Of a DNA stretch of 64,000 nucleotides, positions 8,227-63,869 are shown piece after piece. The notes beneath the pieces were generated by a model. It did not search any database, was not told the origin of the DNA, and worked only from the letters and a program-made list of their open reading frames with translations. The translations under genes and the position numbers were made by a program. The stretch lies in IMG/VR virus record IMGVR_UViG_3300007754_000852, one strand, 5' to 3'. The DNA comes from a virus (lineage: Duplodnaviria > Caudoviricetes). How positions within the stretch are numbered: the first letter of the stretch is position 1; each line of letters begins with the position of its first letter.

Positions 8227-8243
8227 GAAAAGCCAGATTGAGC

Positions 8244-9715: not shown

Positions 9716-9716
9716 A

Positions 9717-21075: not shown

Positions 21076-21594
21076 TTAAAATCCCATCTGTTTAACAGTT
21101 TCATATAATAGTATATTTGCGACCTGTGATGTGTTTAAACAGTATCCAACACCGGGCATGGGAATGTGAATAATGTCACTATTTCTTAGAATCTCTGCTG
21201 GGACTCCGGTCTCCTCATTGCCAACCACCAGACACACTCGACATGTAAAGTCAAATCTATAAGAGCCAATTGGTCTTGATCCCTCGCAGATTTCTGCTGA
21301 TACGAGTTTGATCCTTTCACCCTCAGCCCAATCTAAAAAATCGCGAGGTGATGAGTGTTGTTTGATATCTACAAAGTCACATAGACTTCCAGACAAAGGG
21401 TTTAACATCTTTCGTTTCGGAACTGATCCGATTACATGCACTCGCTCTGCTCCAAAACATGCTGCAGCCCTTATTAGATACCCAAGATTTCCATCATGCA
21501 TAAAATTAATACAACAAAGACTAACGGGGTATGACTTAGCATTTTTCAATTTTAGGCTATATCTCTCTCTTCTAGTATTGCTTCGCGTATTCAC
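21076..21594 (-). CDS. SpoU/TrmH-family RNA 2'-O-methyltransferase (SPOUT)
   Basis: GNLGYLIRAAACFG, LVVGNEETGV, HIPMPG..CLNTSQ. Confidence 0.92.
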   Translation of the reverse strand: MNTRSNTRRERYSLKLKNAKSYPVSLCCINFMHDGNLGYLIRAAACFGAERVHVIGSVPKRKMLNPLSGSLCDFVDIKQHSSPRDFLDWAEGERIKLVSAEICEGSRPIGSYRFDFTCRVCLVVGNEETGVPAEILRNSDIIHIPMPGVGYCLNTSQVANILLYETVKQMGF

Positions 21595-25244: not shown

Positions 25245-26857
25245 ACAAAGCTTTTCTTAAACTCTTCAGGAAACATATCTCTATTCTGTCTAAAGAATCT
25301 TTCCCAGTCAGAATCTAGAATGTACGTTACAGCACTATCATCTTCTGATCTTACACTTCGTCCTGCAGACTGAACTATCTTTTTTGCAGTCTGTAGGGGA
25401 TACCATCCTTTCCACTTATTCATTCTCTTCTTTATAAGCGGATCTCCAAGATAGGGATATGGAATCTTCATTATGATCTGAAATCTTGATAGATCACCGT
25501 GAAGGTCAACACCCTCAGACATTGAAGGTGATAGTAAAACTGTCGGCTCTTTTGATCTCATGTGCTTTCTTAGAATCTCATCCCTGTTTTCACTAGTATG
25601 AATTAAAAGCCTCTTTGACCTAATGTGACTCTTTAGATATTTTGCAATTCGATAAGTGTGGCAGTGAATAACTCCCTTCGAATTCTTGTGTTCCTTTAGA
25701 ATTTCTCTAACCGCTTGCGTCATTTTCGGAAGAGACATATCAATGTTTTTAGCACTCATACTTCCAATCGGATATGATATCACGGGTCGATTCTCAACAG
25801 CAAACGGTGAGGGAATTGAAATAAATGCGACATCAGACTCATCAAGACCTAGAGATCTACAAAATGTCTTGTGATCTAATATCGTCGCTGACATCATAAG
25901 AATCTTATCACCCAACCTGAACAGATATTCGTCAGCAAAAGGAGACACATCAATTGCCTTGAATACAAACTTCCTCTTCGATCGACCGTATGCGCTGACA
26001 CTATCCATCACCCAGTTATCTTTATCGTATACCTTGAGAAACTTTTCAATTTTTCCAACGTGAGACTTTAGCATGTCATACTGCTTTGAAAGTGATGCAA
26101 ATTCCTTAATTCTGCTTTTAAGACCCGTCTCTTTAAGCGTCTTATCCATGTGGCTAAGCTGTGATTTGATCTTAGGAAAATATGTCTCCTTCATCCACTT
26201 CACAACCTGAAACTGTGTGGTGTGGACAGGCCATGATATCTTCAATGCGTGCTTAACAAACCTCTCAGAGACTGTTACTTCAACAAACTTACTCAGCTCA
26301 GATTCAATATTGTGACACTCATCTATCACAAGAACGCGTCTAGGGGTTATCTTTCTAGAAAATGCTGCTTCTGTTAGAAAATATGGAAAATTTGTAACAG
26401 ACGAAGGTGAATCTAGAAACTTTTGTTTTGCATTTTTGTATGTGCAATTATATGTGCACACCTTAAAGAAGCGACTGTCTTTGTCTTCATTTCTTATTAG
26501 CCTCTGCGATTCTTGACATGAATTTTTTTTATGATATGAGCACTTATAATTTGACGAAGACTTTATTGACTTCATGCTCCCACGACGGCATCCGAAGTCA
26601 TTTTCATATTGATCTTGCAAGATCTTTTGAGTCGTTACAAAATATGATCCAGGAGAATATTCATCGACACTGCCAAGATTGTTATTTAAATATCTTGAAA
26701 CAGTTAGTCCAATTGCTGATTTTCCTGTTCCAGTTCCTGACTCTAAGATAACTAGCTTTTTTTCATTGTTGATAAATGCATTTAACGCAAAGTTAATTGC
26801 TTTAACCTGACAATCTCTGATCTTTTCGTGTGGAAATAATTTAGTATAGTCAAACAT
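25241..26857 (-). CDS. DinG/XPD-family SF2 helicase
   Basis: SGTGTGKS, Cys cluster, IDECHN, MSATI, EGVDL, KIPYP, QSAGRSVRSEDD. Confidence 0.93.
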   Translation of the reverse strand: MFDYTKLFPHEKIRDCQVKAINFALNAFINNEKKLVILESGTGTGKSAIGLTVSRYLNNNLGSVDEYSPGSYFVTTQKILQDQYENDFGCRRGSMKSIKSSSNYKCSYHKKNSCQESQRLIRNEDKDSRFFKVCTYNCTYKNAKQKFLDSPSSVTNFPYFLTEAAFSRKITPRRVLVIDECHNIESELSKFVEVTVSERFVKHALKISWPVHTTQFQVVKWMKETYFPKIKSQLSHMDKTLKETGLKSRIKEFASLSKQYDMLKSHVGKIEKFLKVYDKDNWVMDSVSAYGRSKRKFVFKAIDVSPFADEYLFRLGDKILMMSATILDHKTFCRSLGLDESDVAFISIPSPFAVENRPVISYPIGSMSAKNIDMSLPKMTQAVREILKEHKNSKGVIHCHTYRIAKYLKSHIRSKRLLIHTSENRDEILRKHMRSKEPTVLLSPSMSEGVDLHGDLSRFQIIMKIPYPYLGDPLIKKRMNKWKGWYPLQTAKKIVQSAGRSVRSEDDSAVTYILDSDWERFFRQNRDMFPEEFKKSFV

Positions 26858-28554: not shown

Positions 28555-29028
28555 CTAATCGTAAATTACATCAAGAATTTCAAAATACTTTACGCCACTC
28601 GGTGCGTCGATCTCAACATCATCACCAACAGATAGCCCTATTAGCTCAGATGCCAGAGGAGACTTATAGCTTATCTTTCCACCCTTTATATCAGACTCTG
28701 TCTCACCTACAATTCTATATGTTACCTCTTTCTCTGTGTCACAATTAAGAAGCTTGACTTTGACACCGAATACGACCCTTCCGTCTCTTGGTAAGCCGAT
28801 ATTGTAAATCACCTCTGTCTCACTGAGAAAGTTTTGTATCTGATTAATTCTCATCTCATTTTGCTGCTGTCTATCCTTCGCATATGTGAACTCTGCATTT
28901 TCACTGATGTCGCCATATTCACGCGCTACCTCTATCTCTTTTGCTATCTCTAGTCTTACAACAGTTGATAGATTGTTTAGCTCTCTTGCAAGATCATTAT
29001 ATCCGTTCTGTGTTATTGGATGTCTCAT
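28555..29028 (-). CDS. greA: Transcription elongation factor GreA
   Basis: PITQNGY, AREYGDISENAEF, VVFG, ISYKSPLA. Confidence 0.96.
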   Translation of the reverse strand: MRHPITQNGYNDLARELNNLSTVVRLEIAKEIEVAREYGDISENAEFTYAKDRQQQNEMRINQIQNFLSETEVIYNIGLPRDGRVVFGVKVKLLNCDTEKEVTYRIVGETESDIKGGKISYKSPLASELIGLSVGDDVEIDAPSGVKYFEILDVIYD

Positions 29029-32677: not shown

Positions 32678-33043
32678 CTAGTCTAACAGCTTTAACATGT
32701 CAAGAATTCCAGACTGGAACCTGGGATCAGATGAGATTCTCTTTACATTTTCATCTGTTAGTTTGATGTCATATAGCCTACAAGTATTCTCAACAAACTT
32801 TGTCATCGCAGATAGAAAGATGTTTCTAGCCGTAGAGTGATTCATTTTGTGACCCATTGATGTCATCATCTCAGCGATCTCTCTATATCCTAGACCATCA
32901 TCTTGAGATCTAACAGTTGCATATCCATGATCAGTTTTATAACCTTTTGGCATTGACATATCTTTATCCCTCCACAATCTTGGCCACAGCGGCTTCATCG
33001 ATATCAAATTCATCTGTACTGTTAAAATTATCAGATATTCCAA
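32678..33043 (-). CDS. HTH-type protein downstream of the sigma gene (likely start MSMPKGY)
   Basis: LGYREIAEMM...NHSTARN helix-turn-helix pattern. Confidence 0.65.
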   Translation of the reverse strand: MEYLIILTVQMNLISMKPLWPRLWRDKDMSMPKGYKTDHGYATVRSQDDGLGYREIAEMMTSMGHKMNHSTARNIFLSAMTKFVENTCRLYDIKLTDENVKRISSDPRFQSGILDMLKLLD

Positions 33044-33725
33044 ATCTAAGTCTTAGAATTTGCTCTTCTCTCTGCGAGAGTCTTGACAGACATGATTTGA
33101 TCATGATTAAAACCTTTTCCTTGTCTAGAATACTATCAACATCTACATTATCATTATCAGCGATGACCTCAATAATTGACCTTCCGCCTTCATCATTTCC
33201 CATTGTGCTATCAATTGAAATCATATTTTGAAACTTTATAGACTCAAGGCTTGCCTTGACCATATTCTCTGTAACACCGAGAAGTTCAGATATCTCAGCA
33301 ATGCTAGGCTTCTGTCCAAGATCGCTCTCATATTCCTTCATGATCATTCTGACCTTATAGGCCAAAGATGCTGTGTGTGCTGGAACCTTAACTGTGTTTC
33401 TATTTGTGCTGATGTGTCGACAAACAGACTGCTTTATCCACCAGCATGCATATGTGCTAAACTTGAAGCCCCTTCTCCAGTCAAACTTTTCAACAGCTTT
33501 CATTAGGCCGATATTTGACTCTTGGATGAGGTCTTCCATATCACATCCGCTTTTATAATATTTTTTTGCTATACTAATTGCAAGACGAAGATTAGATTCA
33601 ATCATAATGCTTCTGGCTTCTGCGTCTCCTTTTTCAATTCGCTTAGAGAGAATTACCTCCTCCTCTCTTGTTAGAAGGCTTGTTTTTGAAACATCTTTAA
33701 AGTATGAATCAAGTGATTGCGACAT
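32964..33725 (-). CDS. Sigma70-family (RpoD-like) RNA polymerase sigma factor
   Basis: Region 1.2 LLTREEE, region 2 DLIQESNIGLMKAVEKFDWRRGFKFSTYACWWIKQ, region 4 LSQREEQILRLRFG. Confidence 0.96.
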   Translation of the reverse strand: MSQSLDSYFKDVSKTSLLTREEEVILSKRIEKGDAEARSIMIESNLRLAISIAKKYYKSGCDMEDLIQESNIGLMKAVEKFDWRRGFKFSTYACWWIKQSVCRHISTNRNTVKVPAHTASLAYKVRMIMKEYESDLGQKPSIAEISELLGVTENMVKASLESIKFQNMISIDSTMGNDEGGRSIIEVIADNDNVDVDSILDKEKVLIMIKSCLSRLSQREEQILRLRFGISDNFNSTDEFDIDEAAVAKIVEG

Positions 33726-34803: not shown

Positions 34804-36715
<1,912 letters not shown>

Positions 36716-51483: not shown

Positions 51484-52191
51484 TTATGTCCTTAAGGCAT
51501 TCTGAATTTTTTCTGCCCTGTTAACTCTTCCCTCGATCACAGTCCAATTTAATTGTTTCATCATTGCATGAACATATGTTCTTACATCTGTTAAATAGTC
51601 TCGATAGTACGCATGTTGCCACAGGTCTAAGGCTATGATCGGATATGAGCCAACAGGAACTTGTATGCTGTGAAGGTCAACGACGCAGTTCATATATCGC
51701 TGAAGATATGAATTATACACCGTCATAGCCCAGCCACATCTAGATGACATGCAGCATGCTATGAAGTCCTCTTGCCAGGCATCAAAGGTCCCAAAGTCTC
51801 TAGAAAGCCGCATATATGAAAGTGAATCCATTGATATATTGCTATGAAGATCACTTATATTTGAGAAGTATAGCTCATGCAAATAAGCTGCGTTCATATT
51901 GTGAACTTCATCAATCTTTAACGATCTAAACTTAGAATAGTTTGAATCTGCCTCTGATCGATTAACAGCGTCTAGCTCAGCACTTATCCTATTAAATTTT
52001 TCAACATAGCCCTCGTATAGTGCGACATGGCTCTTTTTATTTGCCATGCTTAAAAGCTCTGTAGGAAGATCATGATGCTTTGGCTGTGCAACATATGCCT
52101 CATCTAGAGTCTTGTCGTCTCTAGCATCATTGTCTAGACCAAGTGAATCTCGTATGTTCTTTCTTAGATCATCATTTGTAAAGCTTGACAT
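51484..52191 (-). CDS. Fe/Mn superoxide dismutase family protein
   Basis: SHVALY, YLHELYF, DFGTFDAW, GWA, DLWQHAYY. Confidence 0.9.
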   Translation of the reverse strand: MSSFTNDDLRKNIRDSLGLDNDARDDKTLDEAYVAQPKHHDLPTELLSMANKKSHVALYEGYVEKFNRISAELDAVNRSEADSNYSKFRSLKIDEVHNMNAAYLHELYFSNISDLHSNISMDSLSYMRLSRDFGTFDAWQEDFIACCMSSRCGWAMTVYNSYLQRYMNCVVDLHSIQVPVGSYPIIALDLWQHAYYRDYLTDVRTYVHAMMKQLNWTVIEGRVNRAEKIQNALRT

Positions 52192-53809: not shown

Positions 53810-54220
53810 TCAGATAAGTTTTTTAACAATGATATTGCTATCTGTGAGAACGCTTAGCCCACTGGAATCCCTATATTCTTCATCATATATCACCTTTTTT
53901 ATTCCTGCATTAATAAGGGCCTTGCTGCACATTCGACATGGACTTAAGGTGACATACATTATTTTGTCCTTTGGATTGTTATAGTCCATCTTAAGCAGTG
54001 CATTAATTTCTGCATGTAGCATTCCAGACTCACCTGGTGTTAGTGACTCCACCTCATTTGGACCACCTTTGTGATCCCCGTTATATCCTACTGCTAAGAC
54101 CTGCGTGTTATCTGACGTTACAACAATTGCACCGACCTTGTGTCTTGGATCAATCGACCTTCTTGCAATTGAATGTGCAAACTCCATCCAGATCTGATCC
54201 CATTTCGGTCTATGCTCCAT
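53810..54220 (-). CDS. dCMP deaminase
   Basis: RPKWD, KVGAIVV, GYNG, HAEINAL, SPCRMC. Confidence 0.93.
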   Translation of the reverse strand: MEHRPKWDQIWMEFAHSIARRSIDPRHKVGAIVVTSDNTQVLAVGYNGDHKGGPNEVESLTPGESGMLHAEINALLKMDYNNPKDKIMYVTLSPCRMCSKALINAGIKKVIYDEEYRDSSGLSVLTDSNIIVKKLI

Positions 54221-54234
54221 TGTAACCTCCCGAA

Positions 54235-54462
54235 CTAAAAGGGATTCTCCTCACAGTATCGAATTATCTCCATGATGTCATCAACAAAGGAGTCATCTAG
54301 ATCCTTATAAGACTCACCTAGAATGTCTCTGATTGTCTTCCAGATGTGTGCATGGGCATTCCTACCTTTTGGATGCTTCGAGGTCTCTGGCAGCTTACTG
54401 CTTAGGCTTCTTGCTGCTTCTTCGACCCTTTCCTGCACTCTTTTTTGGTTTTTTGGGCTCAT
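54235..54462 (-). CDS. Hypothetical protein
   Basis: HPKGRNAHAHIW; start uncertain. Confidence 0.6.
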   Translation of the reverse strand: MSPKNQKRVQERVEEAARSLSSKLPETSKHPKGRNAHAHIWKTIRDILGESYKDLDDSFVDDIMEIIRYCEENPF

Positions 54463-55447
54463 CCTTTTTCTCTGGCTTCTCTAGCTCATCTAGAAGTGAC
54501 TCAAGACCTTCGACGACGACGTTCTTGTCAGTGTCACCCTTCTTCTCAAGTGACTCCTTTATCTTTTTTATCTCCTCACGGGCACTTGACGTGTCAACCT
54601 TCTCCTCAACAACATCAAAGAGATTGTCAACAATTGTGTTTCCAGTCAGTGTAAATCCTGCTGCCTTCGGATGCCCGCCGCCGCCAAACTCCTTTGCAAC
54701 CTCTGACACATCGACCTTGTCGTGAAATGCCCTAAGGCTCACCCTGATGTTCCTCTTCTCATGGTCGTAATACCATATCACCGCAAAGTCACAGTCATGT
54801 GATAACCTTGCACCGATCTCAGACATCCAGTGCGATGCATTGACGACAAGAACATCATGACCCATGTATTTTCTCGGTTTTGCTTTCTCACACACCTTTC
54901 TAACAACTGACTTAGAATACTCAAGGATGTAACTACCTTTCTTAACTGCTGCGTCAAACACTGAGTCATCTTCAAATTTCTCAAACTCCTCAAAGTCAAA
55001 CGGAACCATGTCAAATGACGCTGAAAATTCTTTTGAGTAAGGTAGTTCCCACTTCCACAGGTCACGATCCTCGATATACCTAAGGAATTTAGGTGGTTCC
55101 TTTCCTGGGTGGAAGAAATTCCATGAGATTATCGTCCCAGAATGTTTCAGGTCAAATATTGTCTCCGTGATATCATGTAGCTCAACAACTGCTGACTTGT
55201 GATGATCAAGAACAATTAATGAATTTGCCTTTTCAATCAGCTCCTTTGTTGTCTCATTGCTAAAACTGAAATCGCAGATCGCGACGTTTTTTCCCTCGAC
55301 GTCTGGCGGAGCATCTCCATGAGCACATGCAACATATGCTGCTCTATTACCAAGCAGCTTCCATGCTGCATATGCACTTCCCTGCCCATCACTACAGTTC
55401 TTATGATAGATCACCAAATCTACGTCATTTGGATTAGGTCTTGCCAT
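54395..55447 (-). CDS. DHH/DHHA1-family phosphoesterase
   Basis: YHKNCSDG, CDFS, LDHH, EDRDLW, SLRA, GGGGHPKAAG. Confidence 0.93.
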   Translation of the reverse strand: MARPNPNDVDLVIYHKNCSDGQGSAYAAWKLLGNRAAYVACAHGDAPPDVEGKNVAICDFSFSNETTKELIEKANSLIVLDHHKSAVVELHDITETIFDLKHSGTIISWNFFHPGKEPPKFLRYIEDRDLWKWELPYSKEFSASFDMVPFDFEEFEKFEDDSVFDAAVKKGSYILEYSKSVVRKVCEKAKPRKYMGHDVLVVNASHWMSEIGARLSHDCDFAVIWYYDHEKRNIRVSLRAFHDKVDVSEVAKEFGGGGHPKAAGFTLTGNTIVDNLFDVVEEKVDTSSAREEIKKIKESLEKKGDTDKNVVVEGLESLLDELEKPEKKDEPKKPKKSAGKGRRSSKKPKQ

Positions 55448-55450
55448 ATA

Positions 55451-56017
55451 TTAGTCCAGATTGTTTACAAAACTATGATATTCCCAACAGCGAGGCTCAT
55501 ATAAATCTGATCCACCAATGGTTATCTCATCAATACAATCACTTTTTCTATGAGTGTAATATGCATCTCTTCCTGTTACTGGACAAACTGCCGGACATAT
55601 CTCGATCTTTGTTGCCCAGGGCATCATGTCTCGAACCTCTTCAAATACCTTTCCTGTCGCAGATAACTGTAGAGATGAAACGACAATCGTCTTTCCCTTT
55701 CTAAAAAGATAAATAAGAGCTCTAGCAACGTCATCGATCATAAATGCCTCATCAACAGCAATAACATTAGCTGAGCCATCTGAGCTCTTGACGTGATTAA
55801 CTATATCGTCTCCGCTCTCAACTATTATAGCCTTCAACATTCCACCATTATGCGTTGTTATATCTCCGCTTGCATACCTATCATCTAACTTTGGCTTAAA
55901 CGATAGAACAGTTTTATTCTGATACCTGAATCTATCAACTGCGCCTAACAGTCTCGTTGTCTTTGATCCAAACATTGGTCCTGTAAATATTATAAACTCA
56001 GGCGATCTCACTTGCAC
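55451..56017 (-). CDS. tdk: Thymidine kinase
   Basis: GPMFGSKTT, KPKLDDRY, VDEAFM, IGGSDLYEPRC. Confidence 0.94.
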   Translation of the reverse strand: MQVRSPEFIIFTGPMFGSKTTRLLGAVDRFRYQNKTVLSFKPKLDDRYASGDITTHNGGMLKAIIVESGDDIVNHVKSSDGSANVIAVDEAFMIDDVARALIYLFRKGKTIVVSSLQLSATGKVFEEVRDMMPWATKIEICPAVCPVTGRDAYYTHRKSDCIDEITIGGSDLYEPRCWEYHSFVNNLD

Positions 56018-56409
56018 GTTCTCCCATAGTCATCATCTAGTCTTGTGAATTGACTTTTCTTATTATTTCCTATTTCAATAATCTCACTATTTTCAATTGC
56101 AGTAATTCTATACGGGCTACATGACTGGACGTGCAACACATCACCTGGAAAAAACTCATCAATCACATACGGCCTTTCATCCTCTTTTGTCAATGTCAAT
56201 TGATCTCCATGCTGTATTAAAACCTTTCCGCTAAGCACATATAACACCTCATCCTTATGATTATTATATTTTAAACTTGTTCTATTTCCTGCTTCAATGG
56301 ATAAAATTTTTCCATGAACTCCTGGTAGTGCACTCCAGACAATCTCATAACCCCATGGCTTTTTAACTTTTTCACTGCGTCCTTTCCACGAGCACTTATT
56401 CATCTTCAT
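56008..56409 (-). CDS. Cupin-fold protein (mannose-6-P isomerase type II C-terminal-like)
   Basis: VKKPWGYE, TSLKYN..KDE..YVLSG; two canonical His replaced (YN, YR). Confidence 0.75.
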   Translation of the reverse strand: MKMNKCSWKGRSEKVKKPWGYEIVWSALPGVHGKILSIEAGNRTSLKYNNHKDEVLYVLSGKVLIQHGDQLTLTKEDERPYVIDEFFPGDVLHVQSCSPYRITAIENSEIIEIGNNKKSQFTRLDDDYGRTCK

Positions 56410-57430
56410 TTACTCCCCACCACCTAAGTGTTCTCTCAAGACCTTCCCAAAATCTCACTTGCACCTCATACCCGAGATCTCGCTGAACCTTAGAGATGTC
56501 TGCCTGTGTATGCATTACATCTCCAGGACGCCACGGAGCGTGTCTAACAACAGCATGACTAAACCTATTAGTAAAAAAGTCAAGAACTTCCTTGTTAGAT
56601 GTCCTATCTCCACACGATACATTATATGCACTTCCTAAAAATGACTTGTTAGATGTTGCTGCTAAGACGTTTGCCTCAACTGCATTGTCAACATAGCACA
56701 TGTCTCTTGACTGACTTCCATCACCGTCACTTCTTAGCGGGAGACCATTTTTAATTGCATTACACCACGCTGATATCGCTGTGGAGTATGGTGAATCTCC
56801 ATACTGTCCTGGCCCGAATACATTAAAGTATCTTAAACACACGATGTCAAGATCATAAAGGTCGCCAAATAGCCTTGCAGCATCCTCTATTGCACTTTTT
56901 TGCCAGGCATATGGTGACTTAGGTGATTTTTGTGTTTCCTCTCCTGTAGGAAGAACTTCTGCGCCGCCATAGACTGACGATGATGATGCCCACACGACAC
57001 GGTCGACGTTATTCACGCATACCTCAAAGAGCCTAATAGTCCCTGCTATATTTACATCAGTTGTCAGCGATGGATTTTCAACTGAATATGATACCCTTGG
57101 AATCGCTGCCTGATGAAATACCACATCATACATTTTTTCTGATATGTTCCTAATGATCTCCTTATGAGAAAAATCTCCCTGTATCACGAGAACTGCCTTA
57201 TCATCTCTATCTGTTACAGCACTGTAAAAATTTTGCAATAAATCTACAGGAACAACTCTCATGGCTACACCTTCAAGCAATTCAAGATGTCCATTTGACA
57301 TATCATCAACTACATCAACCTTCCAGCCATCACTCACAAGACGCTTTGTTAGATTTGATCCAATAAATCCGCAACCTCCGGTCACTAAAGCTCTTTTCAT
57401 CTTTTCTCCATTCTCATTAATTTTACTCAA
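56396..57430 (-). CDS. NDP-sugar epimerase/dehydratase (extended SDR, WbpP/GalE-like)
   Basis: TGGCGFIGS, HQAAIP, ASSSSVYG, YAWQK, LRYFNVFG. Confidence 0.93.
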   Translation of the reverse strand: MSKINENGEKMKRALVTGGCGFIGSNLTKRLVSDGWKVDVVDDMSNGHLELLEGVAMRVVPVDLLQNFYSAVTDRDDKAVLVIQGDFSHKEIIRNISEKMYDVVFHQAAIPRVSYSVENPSLTTDVNIAGTIRLFEVCVNNVDRVVWASSSSVYGGAEVLPTGEETQKSPKSPYAWQKSAIEDAARLFGDLYDLDIVCLRYFNVFGPGQYGDSPYSTAISAWCNAIKNGLPLRSDGDGSQSRDMCYVDNAVEANVLAATSNKSFLGSAYNVSCGDRTSNKEVLDFFTNRFSHAVVRHAPWRPGDVMHTQADISKVQRDLGYEVQVRFWEGLERTLRWWGVNEDE

Positions 57431-58334
57431 TTATGTGCGCAGAGTTTAAATTCATTCTAATTCTCGCAGATGTACAATTTACACCAATTCTTTTCCAACA
57501 TTCCGACGCAAGATAGTAAAGAAACCTTAAGTCGTGTTCAAACAGCCTGACAACATCGCATGATCTTATCACACAATGAAAATCCATTATTTTATTTCTC
57601 TGACTAACTTGAATAAATGATATACAAGAATCATCAGTGTATACAAACCTTCTAGAAAAAATATCTTCCTTTCTCAGATACTCATTTTCTCCTGACATCT
57701 CTGATTCTATCTTTTTAAGAAGTGCTAAGAATATCTTTATGTAGTATTCTGACTCTGGCTCAAATTCTAAACTTTTTGGTGTTGCTTCCCTAAATTCTCC
57801 GTCGTCATGCAGTGTCAGCTGGAGCGGGAAGACCTCACTCCTCTCTGTCTGTCTTACAACCTTAGCTACAATACCTGCAACATCTTTGAGCTGAAATTTT
57901 TCATGTGACGTTAATTCATCTATAACATGATCAGCTATATCATTTATTGGTGAGCTTTCAGATGTTATTCTTACAGCTAACGGATGATCATTTAAACGCT
58001 TAAACTCTTTTTTAAACGACCTATGAACAGACTTTAAAGATCTAGCGTCGTGGATCTCATCTCCTCTCTTTTCAAATCTCTTCTTTATTACCCTAAACGG
58101 CAGATCGATGATAACATACCTGTTATTTAAATTGTACATCTCTCTGTGTAGATGGTCTTCCATATAGTCAATAGACCTACCATACATCTCTGAAAACACC
58201 TTTCTAGATAGCTGTGATCTATCCATGAGGTGCCACCGATACCCAGTTTTTTTATGAATCTCCCGAATCAGAGACGTCTTTCCTGAACAGTCTGGACCCT
58301 CTACAAATATTGTATGTGCTGGAAATGATAACAC
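57423..58334 (-). CDS. dNMP kinase fused to a minimal thymidylate-synthase/dCMP-hydroxymethylase-fold domain
   Basis: N-term EGPDCSGKT, DRS; C-term SRR...SCISFIQ...RSCDVVRLFEHD...SAHI. Confidence 0.8.
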   Translation of the reverse strand: MLSFPAHTIFVEGPDCSGKTSLIREIHKKTGYRWHLMDRSQLSRKVFSEMYGRSIDYMEDHLHREMYNLNNRYVIIDLPFRVIKKRFEKRGDEIHDARSLKSVHRSFKKEFKRLNDHPLAVRITSESSPINDIADHVIDELTSHEKFQLKDVAGIVAKVVRQTERSEVFPLQLTLHDDGEFREATPKSLEFEPESEYYIKIFLALLKKIESEMSGENEYLRKEDIFSRRFVYTDDSCISFIQVSQRNKIMDFHCVIRSCDVVRLFEHDLRFLYYLASECWKRIGVNCTSARIRMNLNSAHIIE

Positions 58335-61300
58335 TATGCCACGTTCACCTGTTTCATCTTATATGACGACGTAGAACACCCCCACGATTCACTGGACGAA
58401 ACCTCAGCCAGCCATATTGTGTACAAGCCTGGGACAGTTTTAAACTTCGTCCACACGCGAAGCCAGGCGCTTTCTGAATTATTGTCACATACCTTCATTC
58501 TATAGAACACCTTTCCATTTTTTGTAGTTCTCTCTTCAATAGATTGAATGCAGAACCATGCAACTGTCTTCTCGCTTCCACTCATGCTAACAACTGACTT
58601 CACGCCAGACTCATTTATCTTTTTCATAAGCTGTGGAGGAAAAATTAGATCCTCATCTGCACCTGCCATTAGATCAACACACATCTCAATTTTTTCAGAC
58701 CTTGACCAGTCGCTAAGATCGTGACTTTCAAGAATCTTCTCGTTGATAAAGACAGGAACTCGACCTGTATCTTTTATCATTCTCTTCACAGCTGTTTTTG
58801 TCATACCGTGTCTACCCTTCTTAAGAAGATCATAATTTCCAACAATTATCTCATGAAGCTGTCTATGATTTAAGATCTTTCCACTTTTCATCTCATCAAG
58901 AGATCCAAATGCCTCAACCTTACAAAGTGAATCGAAACACGTCTTATTCATCTTTGAAGGTTTCCACGTTCCTTCATCGGTAAATAGCATCTGGTCTATG
59001 CATGTAAATGGCCTTCGCATCATTATTTCCTGAACTGCTGACTTACCCACACCCTTTATTGCTGTGAGAGGAGGAACAAATCCTTCTCGATCATCACTGT
59101 AAACCCAGACGTCAGATGATGTATTGATGTCAGGAGGAAGAAACTTATATCCAAGAGATTTTATTTCCGCCATTATCTTTCCAAACTTTGGTGAGCCGTT
59201 CCACGTCTGAAGGCATGTCGCCAGCCACTCTTTTTCATAATATGTGTGAAGCCATGCAGAGTAATATGAGTCAACTGCATACGATACAGCGTGACTTGCG
59301 TTAAAGCCATATCCTGAGAAATATTCTATTGTCTCATATAGCTTCTCGGCCTTTTCCCTATCCATTCCGCTTAGGTTGACTGACCCATCTACAAATTTCT
59401 TTCTAAGATCAATTCTTTCCTGAACCTTTGCTGCGTTTGAATCAAGAGATTTCTTTACAAGAGTCTTTCTCATCTTGTCAGACTCACCTTTATCAAACCC
59501 TGCTAGCTTCTGTGCTAACATCATAAACTGCTCTTGAAAACACAGATAGGAATATGTCTTGCCTGTAACCTCCTCTATGACAGGATGGTCGTATGATATT
59601 TTCTTACCGGCATCAACTTCTTGCTTAGTCTTTACATACTTCTTATCGACCTTTGCTGCTAAAGGTCCTGGACGATATATTGCGGTAATTGTAGCAAGAT
59701 CATCAATCGATCGTGGCTTTGCATTTTGACAAAACTTTCTTGCACCAGAATTTACAAACTGAAAGATTTGAACGAATCGCCCACCATGATACACATATTC
59801 CCACACCCTTTGATCATCCATGTCATGATATCTGCTGTTTAAGTGATCATCAAAGAACTTATTTATCTGATCGAATGAAGGATTTTCAACACCTTTCTTT
59901 CTTAAAACTAGCCTAATGGTGTCCTCCACCATCTTCAATGTCGCAAGACCAAGAAAGTCAAACTTTAGAAATCCATTCTCTTCTAGATGCCTAAAGTTCA
60001 TTCCTTCAGACCACGGTGTCTGCAACTCACCTCTGACTTTGACTATCGGCATGTGGGTCTCAAGATCAGGACACACCAAGACGCCGCCAGCGTGTCTGCC
60101 AATAGACCTCAACTCCATAAATAGTGTTTGAACATGCTCAGAAACCTTAGGGTATTTTTTCATAAACTTCTGGTATGGTTCACTATATTTCATGCAATCC
60201 TCATGAGTCAAAACATATGTTGATTTTTCCTCGTGGTCTCCCATAGCACGAGGCATCACCTCTCTTTCTAAAGGGTTTGTGAGCTTATTGACTTCATCAA
60301 ATGGAATCCCGTAAAACTTAGACACATCTTTGATCAATGATTTGAGTTTTAATGTATTAAAATTTGATACAGGAATTACAGAATCGTCTCCAAAGAGCTC
60401 TCTTGACACATCGATTAAAACATCTCGATCTCCGACGTCTGTATCAATATCAGGCCAGCTTGCTTTATGAAGACCCAAAAATCTCTCAAAGAGAAGATTA
60501 TACTTTATTGGATCAACATGAGTTATTCCTAAGACATAATTAACAAGACTACCCGCACCTGATCCCCTTCCCGGACCTATCAGGGTTTGATTCTTAGCCT
60601 TATCAAACACTTTAGTTAAGGTTAAAAAGTAGTTTTCAAACCCTAGTTCTTTAATGACAGAAAGCTCTTCTTTGACCCTGACGAGATATTCAGGCTTCTC
60701 ATGAAGGTCTGACTTTATCATTCCTTCCTTTACCTGATCAACTAATTGTCCGAATGCTGACCTTTGGGGTGTTGTAAAGTCTGGAAGTTTTGCGCTGTTA
60801 CCGTCAAACCAAACCTCATCACACATATCCCACGCAATGCCATAGGTTCTCCCAATTGAATCCTTTACTGTGTTCTCATGACCGCGATAGAAGTCATATT
60901 GATCATAGCCTTTCTTAAATGACTCCCACATCTGTTGAGCATTCTTTGGGTATAGCTCGCACTTTAGCTCACTCTTCTCTGGAAGTTTTGGCATCTCATC
61001 ATCTCTAGATCCCATTCTTCCTAAAATTTTATACATCTCTCGTGCCTCCCACATCTCAGGCCTGCAATAATGTGAGTCAGCAGTTGAGATAAGCGGGATA
61101 CCAGTTTTATCTGACAGCTCTAGAAGACATCGATTTGTAAGGTGTTGTGCGACAAGATCGTTAAATTGCAACTCTAAAAAGAAATTTTCTCTGCCAACAG
61201 CATCAACAAATCTATCAGTCATGTTCTCAAGCTTTCTCATCACTGACTTGAGAACATAGGGATCATCAACTAATCCTGGTGATAGCTCATCAAATTGCTT

Positions 61301-61936
61301 ATCTGGAAATTCCTGGAATATGTGACCTGATGCTCGGCCTCCCACACATGCTGTAGATACAATAAGCCCATCAGAATTTTCCTTTAGCATCTTGAAGTCA
61401 ATCCTTGGAAATCTATAAAACCCTTCCTTATATGACATCTTAATAAGCCTAAAAAGATTTTGGAGACCTTTGAAATTTTTCGCTATAACAACAAGATGAT
61501 ATCTCCTCTTCCACTCTGGGTATTCACCTCTATCTTTCTTTGTCTCATTTTCATTTTCAACAATGAGACCCTCACTTTCGTCTCCGTCATCTACAGAGAT
61601 CTTTCTTTTGGTCTCTCTCTCAAGCCTAACCCTCTCACGATGCTTATTGTAGTCATTTCTCCATTCTGATAGATCATCAACGAAATAGCACTCACATCCG
61701 TATATGTGCCTATACTGCTTCCCTTTTGTCTTTAGCTTCTTTGCATAGTTATGCGCATGAGCTGCTGAATTCATGTGACCGTGATTTGTTAAGGCTAGAG
61801 AATTCATTCCGTTCTCAAGAATGAAATCGATGTGCTCATTAGGATAGCCTAGACCGTCATAGACACTTGATCCATCATGTGCATGTAATCCGACAAATCG
61901 TCTGGGCGGAGAAATTTTATTAATTGACATTAGCAT
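58334..61936 (-). CDS. dnaE: DNA polymerase III alpha subunit (family C)
   Basis: PHP LHAH...TNHGH...TADSH; GRGSGAGS; PDIDTD; GRHAGG; KFDFLGL; FSGYGFNASH. Confidence 0.96.
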   Translation of the reverse strand: MLMSINKISPPRRFVGLHAHDGSSVYDGLGYPNEHIDFILENGMNSLALTNHGHMNSAAHAHNYAKKLKTKGKQYRHIYGCECYFVDDLSEWRNDYNKHRERVRLERETKRKISVDDGDESEGLIVENENETKKDRGEYPEWKRRYHLVVIAKNFKGLQNLFRLIKMSYKEGFYRFPRIDFKMLKENSDGLIVSTACVGGRASGHIFQEFPDKQFDELSPGLVDDPYVLKSVMRKLENMTDRFVDAVGRENFFLELQFNDLVAQHLTNRCLLELSDKTGIPLISTADSHYCRPEMWEAREMYKILGRMGSRDDEMPKLPEKSELKCELYPKNAQQMWESFKKGYDQYDFYRGHENTVKDSIGRTYGIAWDMCDEVWFDGNSAKLPDFTTPQRSAFGQLVDQVKEGMIKSDLHEKPEYLVRVKEELSVIKELGFENYFLTLTKVFDKAKNQTLIGPGRGSGAGSLVNYVLGITHVDPIKYNLLFERFLGLHKASWPDIDTDVGDRDVLIDVSRELFGDDSVIPVSNFNTLKLKSLIKDVSKFYGIPFDEVNKLTNPLEREVMPRAMGDHEEKSTYVLTHEDCMKYSEPYQKFMKKYPKVSEHVQTLFMELRSIGRHAGGVLVCPDLETHMPIVKVRGELQTPWSEGMNFRHLEENGFLKFDFLGLATLKMVEDTIRLVLRKKGVENPSFDQINKFFDDHLNSRYHDMDDQRVWEYVYHGGRFVQIFQFVNSGARKFCQNAKPRSIDDLATITAIYRPGPLAAKVDKKYVKTKQEVDAGKKISYDHPVIEEVTGKTYSYLCFQEQFMMLAQKLAGFDKGESDKMRKTLVKKSLDSNAAKVQERIDLRKKFVDGSVNLSGMDREKAEKLYETIEYFSGYGFNASHAVSYAVDSYYSAWLHTYYEKEWLATCLQTWNGSPKFGKIMAEIKSLGYKFLPPDINTSSDVWVYSDDREGFVPPLTAIKGVGKSAVQEIMMRRPFTCIDQMLFTDEGTWKPSKMNKTCFDSLCKVEAFGSLDEMKSGKILNHRQLHEIIVGNYDLLKKGRHGMTKTAVKRMIKDTGRVPVFINEKILESHDLSDWSRSEKIEMCVDLMAGADEDLIFPPQLMKKINESGVKSVVSMSGSEKTVAWFCIQSIEERTTKNGKVFYRMKVCDNNSESAWLRVWTKFKTVPGLYTIWLAEVSSSESWGCSTSSYKMKQVNVA

Positions 61937-62003: not shown

Positions 62004-63869
62004 TTAGTCAACCTCTTCATACTCTGCTTCAGAGAAGTCATCGCTTTCATGAGATGTCTCTTCATTTTTTGATGCATTCTCATACATTTCCCTTCCGGCA
62101 TTTTGAGATACCTCTTCAAGCTTCTCAAGAGCGCTTAAGAGAGCCTCTCTGTCATCCCCAGACAACGCATCCTTGGCATCAGCAACTGCAGACGTAATAT
62201 CAGCAAGAGTCTGATCTGATATCTGCCCACCTGAATCCTTTGTCATTTTTTCAACCTGATAGACTAGACTGTCGCATCTATTTCTATCTTCTACGTCTTT
62301 CTTTCTAATTGCATCTTCCTCTTCATGTTGCTTTGCATCATTAATCATTCTTTCAATATCGTCATCAGACAGTGATCCTTTACCCTCTATTCTAATAGAC
62401 TGATTTTTTCCTGTCGCCTTGTCTTTTGCTGAAACACTAACAATTCCGTTTGCATCGATATCAAATGTAACCTCGATCTGCGGGATCCCTCTCGGTGCGA
62501 CTGGTATGCCGTCTAGCCTAAACCTTCCAAGACTCTTGTTGTTCTTTGCAAACTGCCTTTCACCCTGAAGAACATGAATATCAACAGACGTCTGACCATC
62601 AGCTGCTGTGCTAAATGTCTCATTTTTTGAACACGGTATTGTTGAATTTCTATCAATTAGCCTAGTCATAACACCGCCCAGAGTCTCAATTCCAAGAGAC
62701 AAAGGTGTTACATCTAGCAAGAGAACATCGTGAACATCACCTGAGAATACCCCTCCTTGAACTGCTGCACCTAATGCGACAACTTCATCAGGATTTACAG
62801 AGCTGTTAGACTTTTTGTCAAAGAGCTTCTCAACTGCAGACTTAACTGCAGGGATTCTTGTTGATCCGCCTACGAGTATTACCTCATCAATGTCACCAAC
62901 ATTTAGCCCTGCATCCTTTAGGGCTCTCTTTGTAGGCTTCAGCGTTCTTTCAACAAATGACTCAATCATCTGTTCAAATTTTGACCTTAGAAGCTCAACT
63001 TGAAGATGTTTTGGCCCTGTTGAATCTGCTGTTAAAAATGGCAAGTTTACCTCTGTTTTTTGGGTGCTGGAAAGCTCTATTTTTGCCTTTTCAGATGCAT
63101 CTTTTAGTCGCTGTAAGACCATCTTATCTCCGCTGACGTCGATACCTGTTTTGTTCTTAAACTCTTCAATCAGCCATGATATTAATATCTGATCAACATC
63201 GTCGCCGCCTAGTCGAGTATCTCCATTTGTGCTAAGCACCTCAACAACGCCTTCTGCTATTTCAAGAATTGATATGTCAAATGTTCCACCTCCGAGATCA
63301 AATACAGCAATTTTTTGATCCTTTTTTTTGTCAAATCCATACGCTAATGCTGCAGCCGTCGGCTCATTAATAATTCTCTTTACATCAAGACCAGCAATCT
63401 GCCCAGCATCCTTTGTGGCCTGCCTTTGATCATCGTTAAAATATGCAGGAACAGTTACTACTGCTTCATTTATCTCACATCCAAAATATGACTCAGCTGA
63501 CCTTTTCAACTTTAAAAGAATCTGTGCACTTATCTCCTGTGGCGTATACTTCTTATCATCTATCTTTACGCTACATAGCTCACCCTCACCTGAGACAACA
63601 TTGTACGGCACATTCTTAATATCATCTTTTGAATCTGAAAATCTCGCCCCCATGAACCTCTTGATAGAAAATACTGTGTTTTCTGGATTAACAACGGCCT
63701 GTCTTCTGGCAGGATCACCTACAAGCCTCTCACCCTCCTTTGTAAATGCAACAACAGAAGGTGTTGTTCTGCTTCCTTCTTCGTTTGTAATTATCTTTGG
63801 TGTATCACCCTCTATGACTGAAGCGCAACTATTTGTTGTGCCCAAATCAATTCCTAGTACTTTTCCCAT
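62004..63869 (-). CDS. dnaK: Hsp70 chaperone DnaK
   Basis: [44 protein letters not shown]. Confidence 0.98.

What the first reader, a model, noticed from the sequence alone, without database searches (positions are those of the whole stretch)
53810..61936. Candidate cytosine hypermodification pathway: kinase-TS-fold fusion with Asp specificity residue plus NDP-sugar enzymes next to dnaE
The C-terminal ~130 aa of 57423..58334 aligns by eye to the TS/dCMP-hydroxymethylase core (SRR, catalytic Cys in SCISFIQ, RSCDV, SAH). Established: the residue after RSxD is Asn in ThyA (PFN, dUMP-specific) and Asp in T4 gp42 (FRND, dCMP-specific); here it is FEHD. The domain lacks the usual N-terminal part and is fused to a dNMP kinase that could phosphorylate the modified dCMP. 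An NDP-sugar epimerase and a cupin sugar-isomerase-like gene follow directly, then tdk, DHH and dCMP deaminase, all downstream of dnaE. Inference: a glycosylated hydroxy(methyl)cytosine made at nucleotide level and incorporated by a family C polymerase. Such chemistry is mostly known from family B polymerase T4-like phages.
Basis: partly seen in the sequence, partly recalled or inferred. Interest (0 to 1): 0.8.

Follow-up and report, generated by a model that had tools for sequence, protein, structure and literature searches.

The report
Kinase fused to minimal thymidylate-synthase-like enzyme
A large uncultured marine phage encodes, right after its DNA polymerase gene, one protein that joins a nucleotide kinase to a stripped-down thymidylate-synthase-like domain built to grip cytosine nucleotides; this probably means the phage and hundreds of relatives put an altered cytosine into their DNA, though neither the chemistry nor any attached sugar is shown.

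Summary
ORF 57423-58334 (-) encodes a 303-aa protein with two domains.

- **Kinase domain (residues 1-147):** a YorR/thymidylate-kinase-like P-loop kinase.
- **TS-like domain (residues 148-303):** a minimal thymidylate-synthase (TS) fold. It keeps the Arg-Arg pair, the nucleophile Cys237, Arg257-Ser258, His300 and Asp268 at the dCMP/dUMP specificity position. These residues are nearly invariant in about 50 viral homologues down to 27% identity. The folate-binding insert and the C-terminal third of TS are missing.
- **Closest structures:** the flavin-dependent dCMP 5-hydroxylase AfhB, then T4 dCMP hydroxymethylase, MilA and ThyA.
- **Parallel with known systems:** in every characterised 5-hydroxycytosine phage a YorR-like kinase lies beside the TS homologue. 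Here the two are fused. A gp56-like dCTPase/dUTPase homologue, a ThyX-like gene, tdk and dCMP deaminase complete a T4-style pathway around dnaE.

The sugar link is weaker. The WbgU/WbpP-like 4-epimerase and the cupin are conserved only in the nearer clades. They are absent from the distant fusion-bearing clade, and no glycosyltransferase lies nearby.

Verdict: this is a new minimal branch of the TS superfamily, probably making a C5-modified dCMP. The product and any glycosylation remain unproven. The scan noted this same stretch once more in an overlapping window.

The parts
58334..61936 (-). dnaE, family C replicative polymerase alpha subunit (1200 aa). It is the first gene of the conserved block.
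   Evidence: Pfam PHP, DNA_pol3_alpha, finger and HHH_6 domains. Found upstream of the fusion in nearly all related loci.
57894..58334 (-). Kinase domain of the fusion (residues 1-147), a YorR/TMK/dNK-like P-loop nucleotide kinase. Motifs: EGPDCSGKT, DRS, RFxxRGDE.
   Evidence: VIA-align Z 14.5 to YorR 3kb2 (141 residues, rmsd 2.5), then deoxynucleoside and thymidylate kinases. PDB profile hit to YorR at E 3.5e-5. PHROG 761 thymidylate kinase at E 1.7e-12. Motif residues are invariant in 51 viral homologues.
57426..57893 (-). Minimal TS-fold domain (residues 148-303). Key codons: Arg228/Arg229 at 57648-57653, Cys237 at 57624-57626, Arg257-Ser258, Asp260 at 57555-57557 (equivalent to E. coli ThyA D169), Asp268 at 57531-57533 (equivalent to N177), His300.
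   Evidence: for fold and motif alignment. for conservation. for a predicted TS-like homodimer.
56396..57430 (-). Extended-SDR NDP-sugar 4-epimerase, WbgU/WbpP/TviC-like. The likely true start is the ATG at 57400, after a GGAG.
   Evidence: Pfam Epimerase E 6e-49. PDB hits to WbgU, WbpP and related epimerases at E 1e-43 to 1e-48, with SSS and YxxxK motifs aligned. NCBIfam best hit is TviC, far below the equivalog cut-off. Start-site context.
56008..56409 (-). Small single-domain cupin (133 aa), type II phosphomannose-isomerase-like but without the usual metal-binding histidines.
   Evidence: Weak Pfam MannoseP_isomer hit, E 1.8e-4. PHROG 7851. In the alignment of 18 homologues, K52, E54, Y100 and R101 are invariant where PMI cupins have His/His/Glu/His by my recollection. 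AF2 pLDDT 92. Generic cupin fold matches; the only whole-chain match is T. kodakarensis PMI 7zvy.
55451..56017 (-). Thymidine kinase (TK1 type).
   Evidence: Pfam TK E 2e-32. Directly follows the fusion in the distant clade.
54395..55447 (-). DHH/DHHA1 phosphoesterase (NrnA/RecJ-like).
   Evidence: Pfam DHHA1. PHROG 4771 at E 6e-76. Present in most loci that have the SDR gene; four SDR-bearing loci lack it (L044, L046, L054 and the truncated L020 lacks only the cupin).
53810..54220 (-). dCMP deaminase.
   Evidence: Pfam dCMP_cyt_deam_1 E 7e-24 and PHROG 174 E 3e-45. Conserved downstream of the fusion in nearly all relatives whose locus extends far enough.

Best explanation
The 303-aa protein is a bifunctional enzyme of a T4-style, pre-replicative pyrimidine pathway. 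The C-terminal minimal TS-fold domain works as a homodimer. It binds dCMP through Arg257/Ser258 and the partner subunit's Arg228/Arg229, and it reads the cytosine face with Asp268. Cys237 attacks C6, so that C5 can take a substituent. The most likely products are 5-hydroxy-dCMP (flavin/O2 chemistry, as in AfhB and RB69 gp48) or 5-hydroxymethyl-dCMP. The fused YorR-like kinase then phosphorylates the altered dCMP towards the triphosphate, which the adjacent DnaE-type replicase would incorporate. A gp56-like dCTPase/dUTPase homologue upstream would supply dCMP and keep dCTP low. dCMP deaminase plus the ThyX-like enzyme and tdk would supply dTMP. Shown here: the fold, the motif conservation, the fusion, the synteny and the homology of the partner genes. 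Inferred: substrate, product, cofactor, direction of the kinase step, and incorporation into DNA. Whether a sugar is later added is left open.
For: (1) Fold. The AF2 model has pLDDT 93.5 and pTM 0.89. The best Foldseek hits are dCMP hydroxylase AfhB 9iqu (E 8e-7) and 9iqc, then ThyA, T4 dCH and MilA. VIA-align gives Z 11.1 and 10.8 over residues 148-303. Atlas TS clusters match at TM 0.69-0.75.
(2) Motifs. The SRR, Cys, RS and Asp motifs align with RB69 gp48, an experimentally verified 5hodCMP synthase (hhalign E 5.4e-5; activity from PMC13326640), and with T4 dCH C148/RSND/D179.
(3) Conservation. R228, C237, R257, S258, D268, S298 and H300, together with the kinase P-loop, DRS and LID arginines, are invariant or nearly so in 51 viral fusions down to 27% identity. 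The protein as a whole diverges faster than its neighbours.
(4) Specificity. Asp at the N177 position is the established dCMP determinant (PMC13326640, section 24).
(5) Kinase link. DLP3 gp78, RB69 gp45 and RL38J1 gp214 are YorR/TMK-like kinases lying beside the 5hodCMP synthase in all three phages (Table 1 of PMC13326640). The same EGPDxxGKT kinase type overlaps a 252-aa dCMP-type TS homologue in T7-like contigs. It lies next to the stand-alone mini-TS in L076 and L079. A viral cluster of 437-aa TMK-TS fusions exists in the Atlas.
(6) Dimer. ipSAE is 0.48 against a best control of 0.00. That mark was reached by 20 of 30 proteins solved as homodimers and 1 of 23 solved as monomers. The runs agree in 100% of contacts, and the partner pLDDT is at least 89. 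The interface is the beta-sheet, with Arg228 touching residues 297/298 of the partner, as in TS. TS dimers are solved structures, so this pass may reflect likeness.
(7) Pathway context. The 121-aa upstream protein aligns end to end with RB69 gp56 dCTPase/dUTPase (hhalign probability 90%, E 1.8e-6). A ThyX-family gene, NDT and a HAD nucleotidase lie upstream. The dnaE-fusion-tdk-dCD order is kept in nearly all of about 60 related loci.
Against: P0001 gives no Pfam PF00303 hit, and all sequence links to TS are weak individually. About 60 residues of the folate/flavin-side insert and about 55 C-terminal residues of TS are absent, so the cofactor site is largely missing. It is unclear what would deliver the one-carbon or oxygen unit. 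The D169-equivalent position, proposed as diagnostic (Asn = hydroxylase, Asp = hydroxymethylase or methylase), varies within this one orthologous family: N 28, D 15, E 7. The window protein has Asp, so the signature does not name the product. In L076 and L079 a stand-alone mini-TS coexists with a normal-length dCMP-type TS homologue. This hints that the mini-TS may have a different or accessory role. There is no chemical evidence that the DNA of any of these uncultured phages is modified.
Confidence: 0.5

Rival explanations
1. The TS-like domain binds a cytosine nucleotide but adds nothing at C5. It could be a regulatory or channelling module for the kinase or the replisome. It could also catalyse cofactor-free chemistry that Cys-C6 addition allows, such as 5-H exchange or deamination. 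Virion DNA would then carry canonical bases.
For: The cofactor-binding insert and C-terminus of TS are missing. The D169-equivalent position is free to vary among D, N and E. The mini-TS coexists with full-length dCMP-type TS homologues in L076 and L079. The phage has its own ThyX-family gene, tdk and dCMP deaminase, so an ordinary pool-boosting role for the whole block is possible.
Against: The nucleophile Cys, the specificity Asp, and the phosphate-binding Arg and Ser residues are invariant across very divergent sequences, which argues for catalysis. The recurrent pairing with the same kinase type that accompanies verified C5-modifying TS homologues also argues against a passive role (PMC13326640 Table 1). 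A zinc dCMP deaminase is already encoded three genes away, which makes a second deaminase redundant.
Confidence: 0.25
2. The full first-reader pathway. The modified cytosine carries a hydroxyl that is glycosylated, and the adjacent 4-epimerase and cupin make the NDP-sugar donor.
For: The epimerase and cupin lie inside the nucleotide operon, with overlapping reading frames, between the fusion and tdk. The SDR gene is conserved at 50-76% identity in 38 of 48 distinct fusion-bearing loci. Independently, a stand-alone mini-TS in L076 sits in a cluster with a kinase, a dCMP-type TS homologue, a cytidylyltransferase-like gene and another SDR epimerase. Known 5hoC and 5hmC phages do glycosylate (PMC13326640).
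Against: Seventeen distant fusion loci lack both sugar genes, and the cupin is limited to the closest clade. No glycosyltransferase family was found among the 39 window ORFs scanned or among 10 genes inserted between the fusion and SDR in relatives. The cupin has lost the usual metal ligands and its activity cannot be named. SDR presence does not track the Asn/Asp state.
Confidence: 0.15
3. The sugar enzymes serve protein or cell-surface glycans, not DNA. Their place in the operon reflects early co-expression or lineage history only.
For: The closest relatives of the SDR are O-antigen and capsule UDP-HexNAc 4-epimerases. Earlier unchecked notes of this scan report a 29-kb glycan-building island beside the baseplate genes of the same genome. 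The SDR and DHH genes mostly appear and disappear together as a lineage block.
Against: The position inside a nucleotide-metabolism operon is tightly conserved. In some relatives GMP reductase is inserted between the SDR and the cupin. The glycan island is more than 100 kb away.
Confidence: 0.45
4. The module modifies uracil or thymine nucleotides rather than cytosine, working with the unusual long ThyX-like enzyme.
For: The mini-TS is translationally coupled to a ThyX-like gene (38% identical to this phage's) in L080/L081, next to a UDG-polymerase fusion, an NDT and an HD nucleotidase. HAD/NT5C-like and HD nucleotidases are typical of thymidine-replacing phages (my own knowledge).
Against: Asp, not Asn, is invariant at the N177-equivalent position in both fusions and stand-alone forms.
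Confidence: 0.1

Closest known systems
5-hydroxy-dCMP synthases (phage HY126 AfhB, PDB 9iqu; RB69 gp48; DLP3 gp80; RL38J1 gp216) with their neighbouring YorR/TMK-like nucleotide kinases
   Same: TS fold. Catalytic Cys, Arg-Arg, Arg-Ser and Asp at the N177 position. Top structural match. The same kinase type is the genomic partner. A gp56-like dCTPase/dUTPase homologue is in the genome. Most family members carry the D169N signature.
   Different: The domain has about 156 aa against 217-238. No Pfam TS hit. The window protein has Asp, not Asn, at the D169 position. The kinase is fused rather than adjacent. The replicase is DnaE rather than family B. No arabinose-pathway genes or adjacent glycosyltransferases. 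Flavin use is untested.
T4 gp42 dCMP hydroxymethylase with gp1 dNMP kinase and gp56 dCTPase
   Same: dCMP-specific Asp, an acidic residue three positions before the Cys, Asp retained in RSxD, and the same pathway logic (dCTPase, TS homologue, kinase, dCMP deaminase, tk).
   Different: The folate-binding elements and C-terminus are missing. The kinase belongs to a different P-loop subfamily (YorR/TMK-like, not gp1-like). No T4 alpha- or beta-glucosyltransferase was detected.
ThyA thymidylate synthase (PF00303)
   Same: Core sheet-and-helix fold, predicted sheet-to-sheet homodimer, and the nucleophile and phosphate-binding residues.
   Different: Asn177 is replaced by Asp. About 115 residues are absent. 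The protein scores below Pfam thresholds. The phage has a separate ThyX-family gene for dTMP.
Bacillus SPbeta YorR (PDB 3kb2/2axp) and thymidylate or deoxynucleoside kinases
   Same: N-terminal domain fold (Z 14.5), an EGPDC-type P-loop, the DR(S) motif and LID arginines.
   Different: YorR is a stand-alone protein of unknown substrate. Here the kinase is fused to the TS-like domain.
Viral thymidylate-kinase/thymidylate-synthase fusions (ESM Atlas cluster of about 437 aa) and overlapping kinase plus 252-aa TS gene pairs in T7-like contigs
   Same: The same two functions, joined or translationally coupled. The TS part has the dCMP-type Asp.
   Different: Those carry a full-length, Pfam-recognisable TS domain. 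This family carries the minimal one.
WbgU/WbpP/TviC UDP-HexNAc(A) 4-epimerases
   Same: The SDR gene shares the full-length fold, the GxxGxxG motif, and the Ser and YxxxK catalytic residues (E 1e-43 to 1e-48).
   Different: About 35-40% similarity only, below every NCBIfam equivalog cut-off. The substrate is unknown. The gene is encoded in a phage nucleotide operon.

Membership tests
Thymidylate synthase superfamily (fold level) | TS alpha/beta fold with a central sheet | tested here: met
   Foldseek probability 1.00 to many TS-family chains. VIA-align Z 11.1 and 10.8 over residues 148-303. Atlas TM 0.69-0.75 to TS-domain clusters.
Thymidylate synthase superfamily (fold level) | Catalytic Cys nucleophile (E. 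coli ThyA C146) followed by the strand pair that carries Arg166-Ser167 | tested here: met
   C237 and R257-S258 align with T4 dCH C148/R-S and RB69 gp48. They are present in 49 of 51 homologues.
Thymidylate synthase superfamily (fold level) | Arg126'/Arg127' pair donated across an obligate sheet-to-sheet homodimer | tested here: met
   SRRF at 227-230 is invariant. The homodimer model scores ipSAE 0.48 against a best control of 0.00, with Arg228 contacting partner residues 297/298. This is a prediction only and may reflect likeness to solved TS dimers.
Thymidylate synthase family as defined by Pfam PF00303 | Score above the gathering threshold | tested here: not met
   No PF00303 hit for P0001 at E<=0.01. 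PHROG 160 matches only at E 0.0075. A stand-alone relative, P0251, reaches E 0.07.
Folate-dependent TS and dCMP hydroxymethylase (ThyA, T4 gp42) | Folate-binding insert (ThyA residues about 66-125, W80/W83) and a C-terminal segment that closes the site | tested here: not met
   The domain has 156 aa, and the protein ends three residues after His300. Only the core elements are modelled.
dCMP-specific branch of the TS superfamily | Asp in place of ThyA Asn177 | tested here: met
   D268 is present in 50 of 51 fusions and in all stand-alone forms read.
5hodCMP synthase (AfhB / RB69 gp48 type) | Asn in place of ThyA Asp169 (the proposed diagnostic, PMC13326640) | tested here: not met
   The window protein has Asp260 (RSCDV). 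Among 50 relatives the position is N 28, D 15, E 7.
5hodCMP synthase (AfhB / RB69 gp48 type) | Flavin cofactor and O2-dependent hydroxylation of dCMP | not testable with these tools
   Needs purified protein or an in vivo LC-MS assay.
5hodCMP synthase gene clusters | Adjacent YorR/TMK-like nucleotide kinase | tested here: met
   The kinase is fused in the same polypeptide. The N-domain's best match is YorR 3kb2, the same hit reported for DLP3 gp78 (PMC13326640 Table 1).
5hoC and 5hmC hypermodification systems | DNA glycosyltransferase(s) encoded with the pathway | tested here: inconclusive
   No GT family was found among the 39 window ORFs scanned or among 10 inserted genes in relatives. The rest of the genome could not be searched. 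Several neighbours have no family at all.
T4 gp56-type dCTPase/dUTPase (pathway partner) | Homology over the full length | tested here: met
   hhalign of the 121-aa upstream protein family against RB69 gp56 gives probability 89.8% and E 1.8e-6, covering columns 2-123 against residues 31-173. Pfam dUTPase_2 scores 27.2 bits against a cut-off of 22.9. The preference for dCTP or dUTP was not tested.
P-loop nucleoside/nucleotide kinases (YorR/TMK/dNK) | Walker A motif, DR(S/Y) motif, LID arginines, and the fold | tested here: met
   The substrate (nucleoside or monophosphate; canonical or modified) was not tested.
UDP-hexose/HexNAc 4-epimerases (GalE/WbpP/WbgU) | Extended SDR with GxxGxxG and a Ser...YxxxK triad, without the dehydratase Asp-Glu | tested here: met
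   The alignments to 6dnt and WbgU show GGxGFIGS, SSSSVYG and SPYAxxK matched. No NCBIfam equivalog cut-off is reached.

The most novel reading that the evidence does not exclude
The minimal TS domain is a new kind of pyrimidine-activating enzyme that has shed its own cofactor site. It would receive the group to be installed from a partner, for example the unusual long ThyX-like flavoprotein. That ThyX-like gene co-occurs with the mini-TS in three otherwise unrelated phage types and is translationally coupled to it in one. The pair would make a so far undescribed cytosine derivative that fills the DNA of an abundant clade of marine jumbo phages replicated by a DnaE-type polymerase.
Probability: 0.15. 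Interest if true: 0.9.

Novelty: new variant of a known kind. Interest (0 to 1): 0.7.

Why it matters
TS homologues are the entry point of almost every known pyrimidine hypermodification in phage DNA, and their active-site signatures are used to predict which base a phage makes. This family shows that the fold can be cut down to about 156 residues and still keep every nucleotide-activating residue. It also shows that the fold can be fused to the kinase that known systems only place next door. The proposed Asp/Asn diagnostic position flips freely within one orthologous group. The family has at least 255 clusters at 50% identity, mostly from marine viromes, in contigs of up to 280 kb. If the product is a modified cytosine, a large and common group of ocean phages has non-canonical DNA. 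That would affect sequencing bias, host defence evasion and enzyme discovery. It would also be an example of such a base being handled by a family C replicase.

Tried and rejected
- **Whole-genome search:** I used identical and related contigs instead.
- **GenBank phages:** megablast of the region found nothing. tblastn found only kinase-domain hits in Bacillus phages.
- **PDB sequence searches:** the whole-protein profile found only YorR and kinases.
- **Cupin:** no informative PDB sequence hit. The fold search gave only generic cupins and seed storage proteins. There was no similarity to RB69 arabinose-5-phosphate isomerase.
- **409-aa gene downstream of dCD:** no hit in Pfam, PHROGs or NCBIfam. 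The Atlas shows only viral hypothetical proteins. It occurs only in the closest relatives, so it was not pursued as a candidate transferase.
- **Glycosyltransferases:** none was found by Pfam among the 39 window ORFs scanned or among 10 inserted genes. PHROGs gave nothing for ten large unknown ORFs.
- **Nanopore runs:** I looked for public nanopore runs holding this stretch, to check base-specific miscalls as a sign of modification. None was listed, which is no evidence either way.
- **D169 signature and the sugar genes:** I tested whether the Asn/Asp state tracks SDR presence. It does not.
- **Literature:** searches found no description of a minimal TS domain or of this fusion.
- **HAD protein:** the 323-aa upstream HAD protein shows only weak HAD-level similarity to RB69 gp51. 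This is not enough to call it an AfhF analogue.

Full report
**What is there**

The window is almost entirely coded on the minus strand. From about 10 kb onward it has about 39% G+C and carries five tRNA genes. IMG/VR holds about 60 related viral contigs. The protein database holds more than 148 homologues of the key protein, on marine metagenome contigs up to 280 kb.

The block in question reads, on the minus strand:
- dnaK 62004-63869
- dnaE 58334-61936
- a 303-aa ORF 57423-58334
- an extended-SDR epimerase 56396-57430
- a 133-aa cupin 56008-56409
- tdk 55451-56017
- a DHH/DHHA1 phosphoesterase 54395-55447
- dCMP deaminase 53810-54220

The 303-aa ORF starts at a GTG whose last base is the first base of the dnaE stop codon, with an AGGTGA upstream. 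A database gene call of 267 aa from an internal ATG (P0002) would cut off the P-loop. The full-length homologues show that the GTG start is right.

**The fusion protein**

Pfam sees only weak P-loop matches and no thymidylate synthase. PHROGs give thymidylate kinase for the first half (E 1.7e-12) and a marginal TS hit for residues 237-301 (E 0.0075).

An AlphaFold model built on 33 homologues is confident: pLDDT 93.5, pTM 0.89. It has two domains.
- Residues 4-147 match SPbeta YorR (Z 14.5, 141 residues, rmsd 2.5), followed by deoxynucleoside and thymidylate kinases.
- Residues 148-303 match the flavin-dependent dCMP hydroxylase AfhB of phage HY126 (9iqu; Foldseek E 8e-7; VIA-align Z 11.1, 147 residues, rmsd 3.1). 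They also match CMP hydroxymethylase MilA (Z 10.8, 141 residues, model 148-303 against chain residues 8-219), then ThyA and T4 dCMP hydroxymethylase.

The ESM Atlas gives TS-domain clusters as structural neighbours at TM 0.69-0.75 over 141-146 of the 156 residues.

At sequence level, the domain profile aligns with RB69 gp48 (hhalign E 5.4e-5), with SRR, the Cys, RS and the Asp in register. The only PDB sequence it finds is T4 dCMP hydroxymethylase, again with Cys148, RSND and Asp179 aligned (E 0.65).

The domain is not merely the C-terminal half of TS. It keeps the first helix, the first strand, the long helix and the four core strands plus helix J. It lacks the internal insert that forms most of the folate site and everything after the His of the DAH motif.

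**Conservation**

In 33 database homologues and in 51 IMG/VR fusions reaching 27% identity, the following are invariant or nearly so:
- kinase domain: E12, G13, D15, G18, K19, T20, D38-R39-S40, R86, R90-G-D92
- TS-like domain: R228, R229, C237, R257, S258, D268, S298, H300

The residue three positions before the Cys (ThyA L143) is mostly acidic or polar. The residue equivalent to ThyA D169 is Asn in 28, Asp in 15 and Glu in 7; the window has Asp.

Lee et al. (PMC13326640) proposed D169N as the signature of 5-hydroxy-dCMP synthases, with N177D for dCMP specificity. Here N177D is universal, but the D169 position flips within one syntenic orthologous group. The signature therefore cannot name the product.

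A homodimer prediction of the domain passed its controls. ipSAE was 0.48 against a best control of 0.00. That mark was reached by 20 of 30 solved homodimers and 1 of 23 monomers. The runs agree in 100% of contacts, and the partner pLDDT is at least 89. The interface is the beta-sheet, and Arg228 reaches residues 297/298 of the partner, as in TS. Because TS dimers are solved structures, this shows likeness rather than independent proof.

**Context**

Contigs identical to the window extend it upstream. They show dnaJ, a nucleoside 2-deoxyribosyltransferase, a 328-aa ThyX-family protein, a 323-aa protein with an NT5C/HAD-like C-terminal half, and a 121-aa dUTPase_2/MazG-like protein. That last family aligns end to end with RB69 gp56 dCTPase/dUTPase (probability 90%, E 1.8e-6).

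tblastn of the window's proteins on 66 related loci shows that dnaE-fusion-tdk-dCMP deaminase, usually followed by SOD, is kept throughout.
- The SDR gene is present in 38 of 48 distinct fusion-bearing loci.
- The DHH gene accompanies the SDR gene in most of them.
- The cupin is present only in the clade at about 38% identity or more.
- Seventeen loci of the most distant clade lack SDR, cupin and DHH.

GMP reductase sits between the SDR and the cupin in some relatives. The fusion itself is less conserved (27-57% identity) than its neighbours (SDR 50-76%, dnaE 52-78%).

**The kinase link**

Table 1 of PMC13326640 lists a nucleotide kinase with YorR or thymidylate-kinase structural hits next to the 5hodCMP synthase in DLP3 (gp78/gp80), RB69 (gp45/gp48) and RL38J1 (gp214/gp216).

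RB69 gp45 shares the GPDxxGKT P-loop stretch with the fusion. The weakest hits of the locus search turned out to be T7-like contigs. There an EGPDCSGKT kinase of 181 aa overlaps a 252-aa TS homologue that has Asp at the N177 position. The Atlas also holds a viral cluster of 437-aa thymidylate-kinase/TS fusions.

So this kinase type is a recurrent partner of dCMP-type TS homologues. The window's protein is the fused, minimal form of that pair.

**Stand-alone minimal TS proteins**

A profile search of 1.84 billion representatives found 255 proteins at E<=0.001. Most are fusions of about 300 aa. Some are stand-alone proteins of 166-190 aa with the same motifs. Their contexts are telling.
- **L076:** kinase, a 221-aa dCMP-type TS homologue, mini-TS, an unknown gene, a cytidylyltransferase-like gene, an unknown gene, and an SDR epimerase.
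- **L079:** family A polymerase, dUTPase_2, a 222-aa TS homologue, ThyX, an unknown gene, a HAD protein, a kinase overlapping the mini-TS, and dCMP deaminase.
- **L080/L081:** kinase, NDT, an HD nucleotidase, and a ThyX-like gene (38% identical to this phage's) overlapping the mini-TS, then a UDG-family B polymerase fusion.

Two conclusions follow. First, the mini-TS always travels with nucleotide-pool genes next to the replicase. Second, it can coexist with a normal TS homologue, so it may do something other than the first C5 substitution.

**The sugar genes**

The SDR is a 4-epimerase type, not a 4,6-dehydratase. Its best relatives are WbgU, WbpP and TviC-like UDP-HexNAc(A) 4-epimerases (E 1e-43 to 1e-48), with the Ser and YxxxK residues aligned.

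The cupin resembles the type II phosphomannose isomerase cupin at both ends (KPWG...DDYGR). However, it has Lys, Glu, Tyr and Arg invariant where I recall the metal ligands to be. Its model is a plain cupin barrel.

No glycosyltransferase family appears among the 39 window ORFs scanned or among genes inserted beside the fusion in relatives. Those insertions encode a phosphoribosyltransferase, a cytochrome c peroxidase and unknowns.

Earlier unchecked notes of this scan describe the genome as a marine T4-like jumbo phage with a 29-kb glycan island far from this window. That gives the sugar enzymes another possible client. The independent SDR association in L076 keeps the DNA-sugar idea alive, but it is the weakest part of the reading.

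**Verdict**

The most likely function is a dimeric, dCMP-specific, Cys-dependent C5-modifying enzyme fused to the kinase that carries its product onward. It sits in a T4-like pathway (gp56-like dCTPase/dUTPase homologue, dCMP deaminase, ThyX-like gene, tdk) around a DnaE replicase.

The product (5-hydroxy, 5-hydroxymethyl or something new), the cofactor and any glycosylation are unknown. A non-transferase or accessory role cannot be excluded.

I found no paper describing this minimal TS branch or the fusion.

Noticed in passing
L076:2583-7737; L079:3485-8980; L080:4955-10636: Stand-alone minimal TS proteins (166-190 aa, with the same SRR / DC[IL]S / RSSD / Asp / GS[LA]H motifs) occur in unrelated phage contigs. 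They always lie among nucleotide-pool genes next to a replicase of family A, B or C. Twice they sit beside a normal-length dCMP-type TS homologue.
   Followed up: partly
L001:1656-2642 (about 3 kb beyond the window end); L080:6404-7276: A long ThyX-family protein (290-349 aa). Its RHR...S..R motif region carries a conserved AQC(T/S)GD with Cys. In L080 its gene overlaps the mini-TS gene by 4 nt. It is 38% identical between two otherwise unrelated phages.
   Followed up: partly
L071:9995-11261; L072:2062-3328: T7-like contigs (a primase-helicase gene follows) carry an EGPDCSGKT kinase of 181 aa that overlaps a 252-aa TS homologue with RSSD and Asp at the N177 position. This is a likely cytosine-modification pair.
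   Followed up: no
L001:225-590 (beyond the window end): A 121-aa all-alpha NTP pyrophosphatase aligns end to end with RB69 gp56 dCTPase/dUTPase, including the terminal Gly-Tyr. It is about 50 residues shorter.
   Followed up: partly
window 1-10000: G+C is about 50% in the first 10 kb against about 39% in the rest. This part holds RtcB (1749-2966), a metallophosphoesterase (6218-6946) and unknown ORFs. It may be an acquired block or an assembly join.
   Followed up: no
window 16411-36414 and 51484-52191: Many cell-like genes in a phage: GreA (28555-29028), a sigma-70 family factor (32964-33725), GroEL (34804-36414), GMP reductase (24174-25244), an XPD-like helicase (25241-26857), a SpoU methylase (21076-21594), an AhpC-like protein (16411-16992, + strand), Fe/Mn SOD (51484-52191), and DnaK and DnaJ at or beyond the window end.
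   Followed up: no
L004:1161-1967; L005:770-1573: Relatives encode an Fpg/Nei-type DNA glycosylase close to the nucleotide cluster. From my own knowledge, Nei-type enzymes excise 5-hydroxycytosine, which would sit oddly with unprotected 5hoC in the DNA.
   Followed up: no
window 57423-58334 against its neighbours: The fusion diverges much faster (27-57% identity) than the flanking dnaE, SDR, DHH and dCMP deaminase genes (50-78%) across the same loci, while its catalytic residues stay fixed.
   Followed up: partly
window 58226-58334: A public gene call for this protein (267 aa) starts at an internal ATG and drops the P-loop. The real start is a GTG overlapping the dnaE stop codon.
   Followed up: yes
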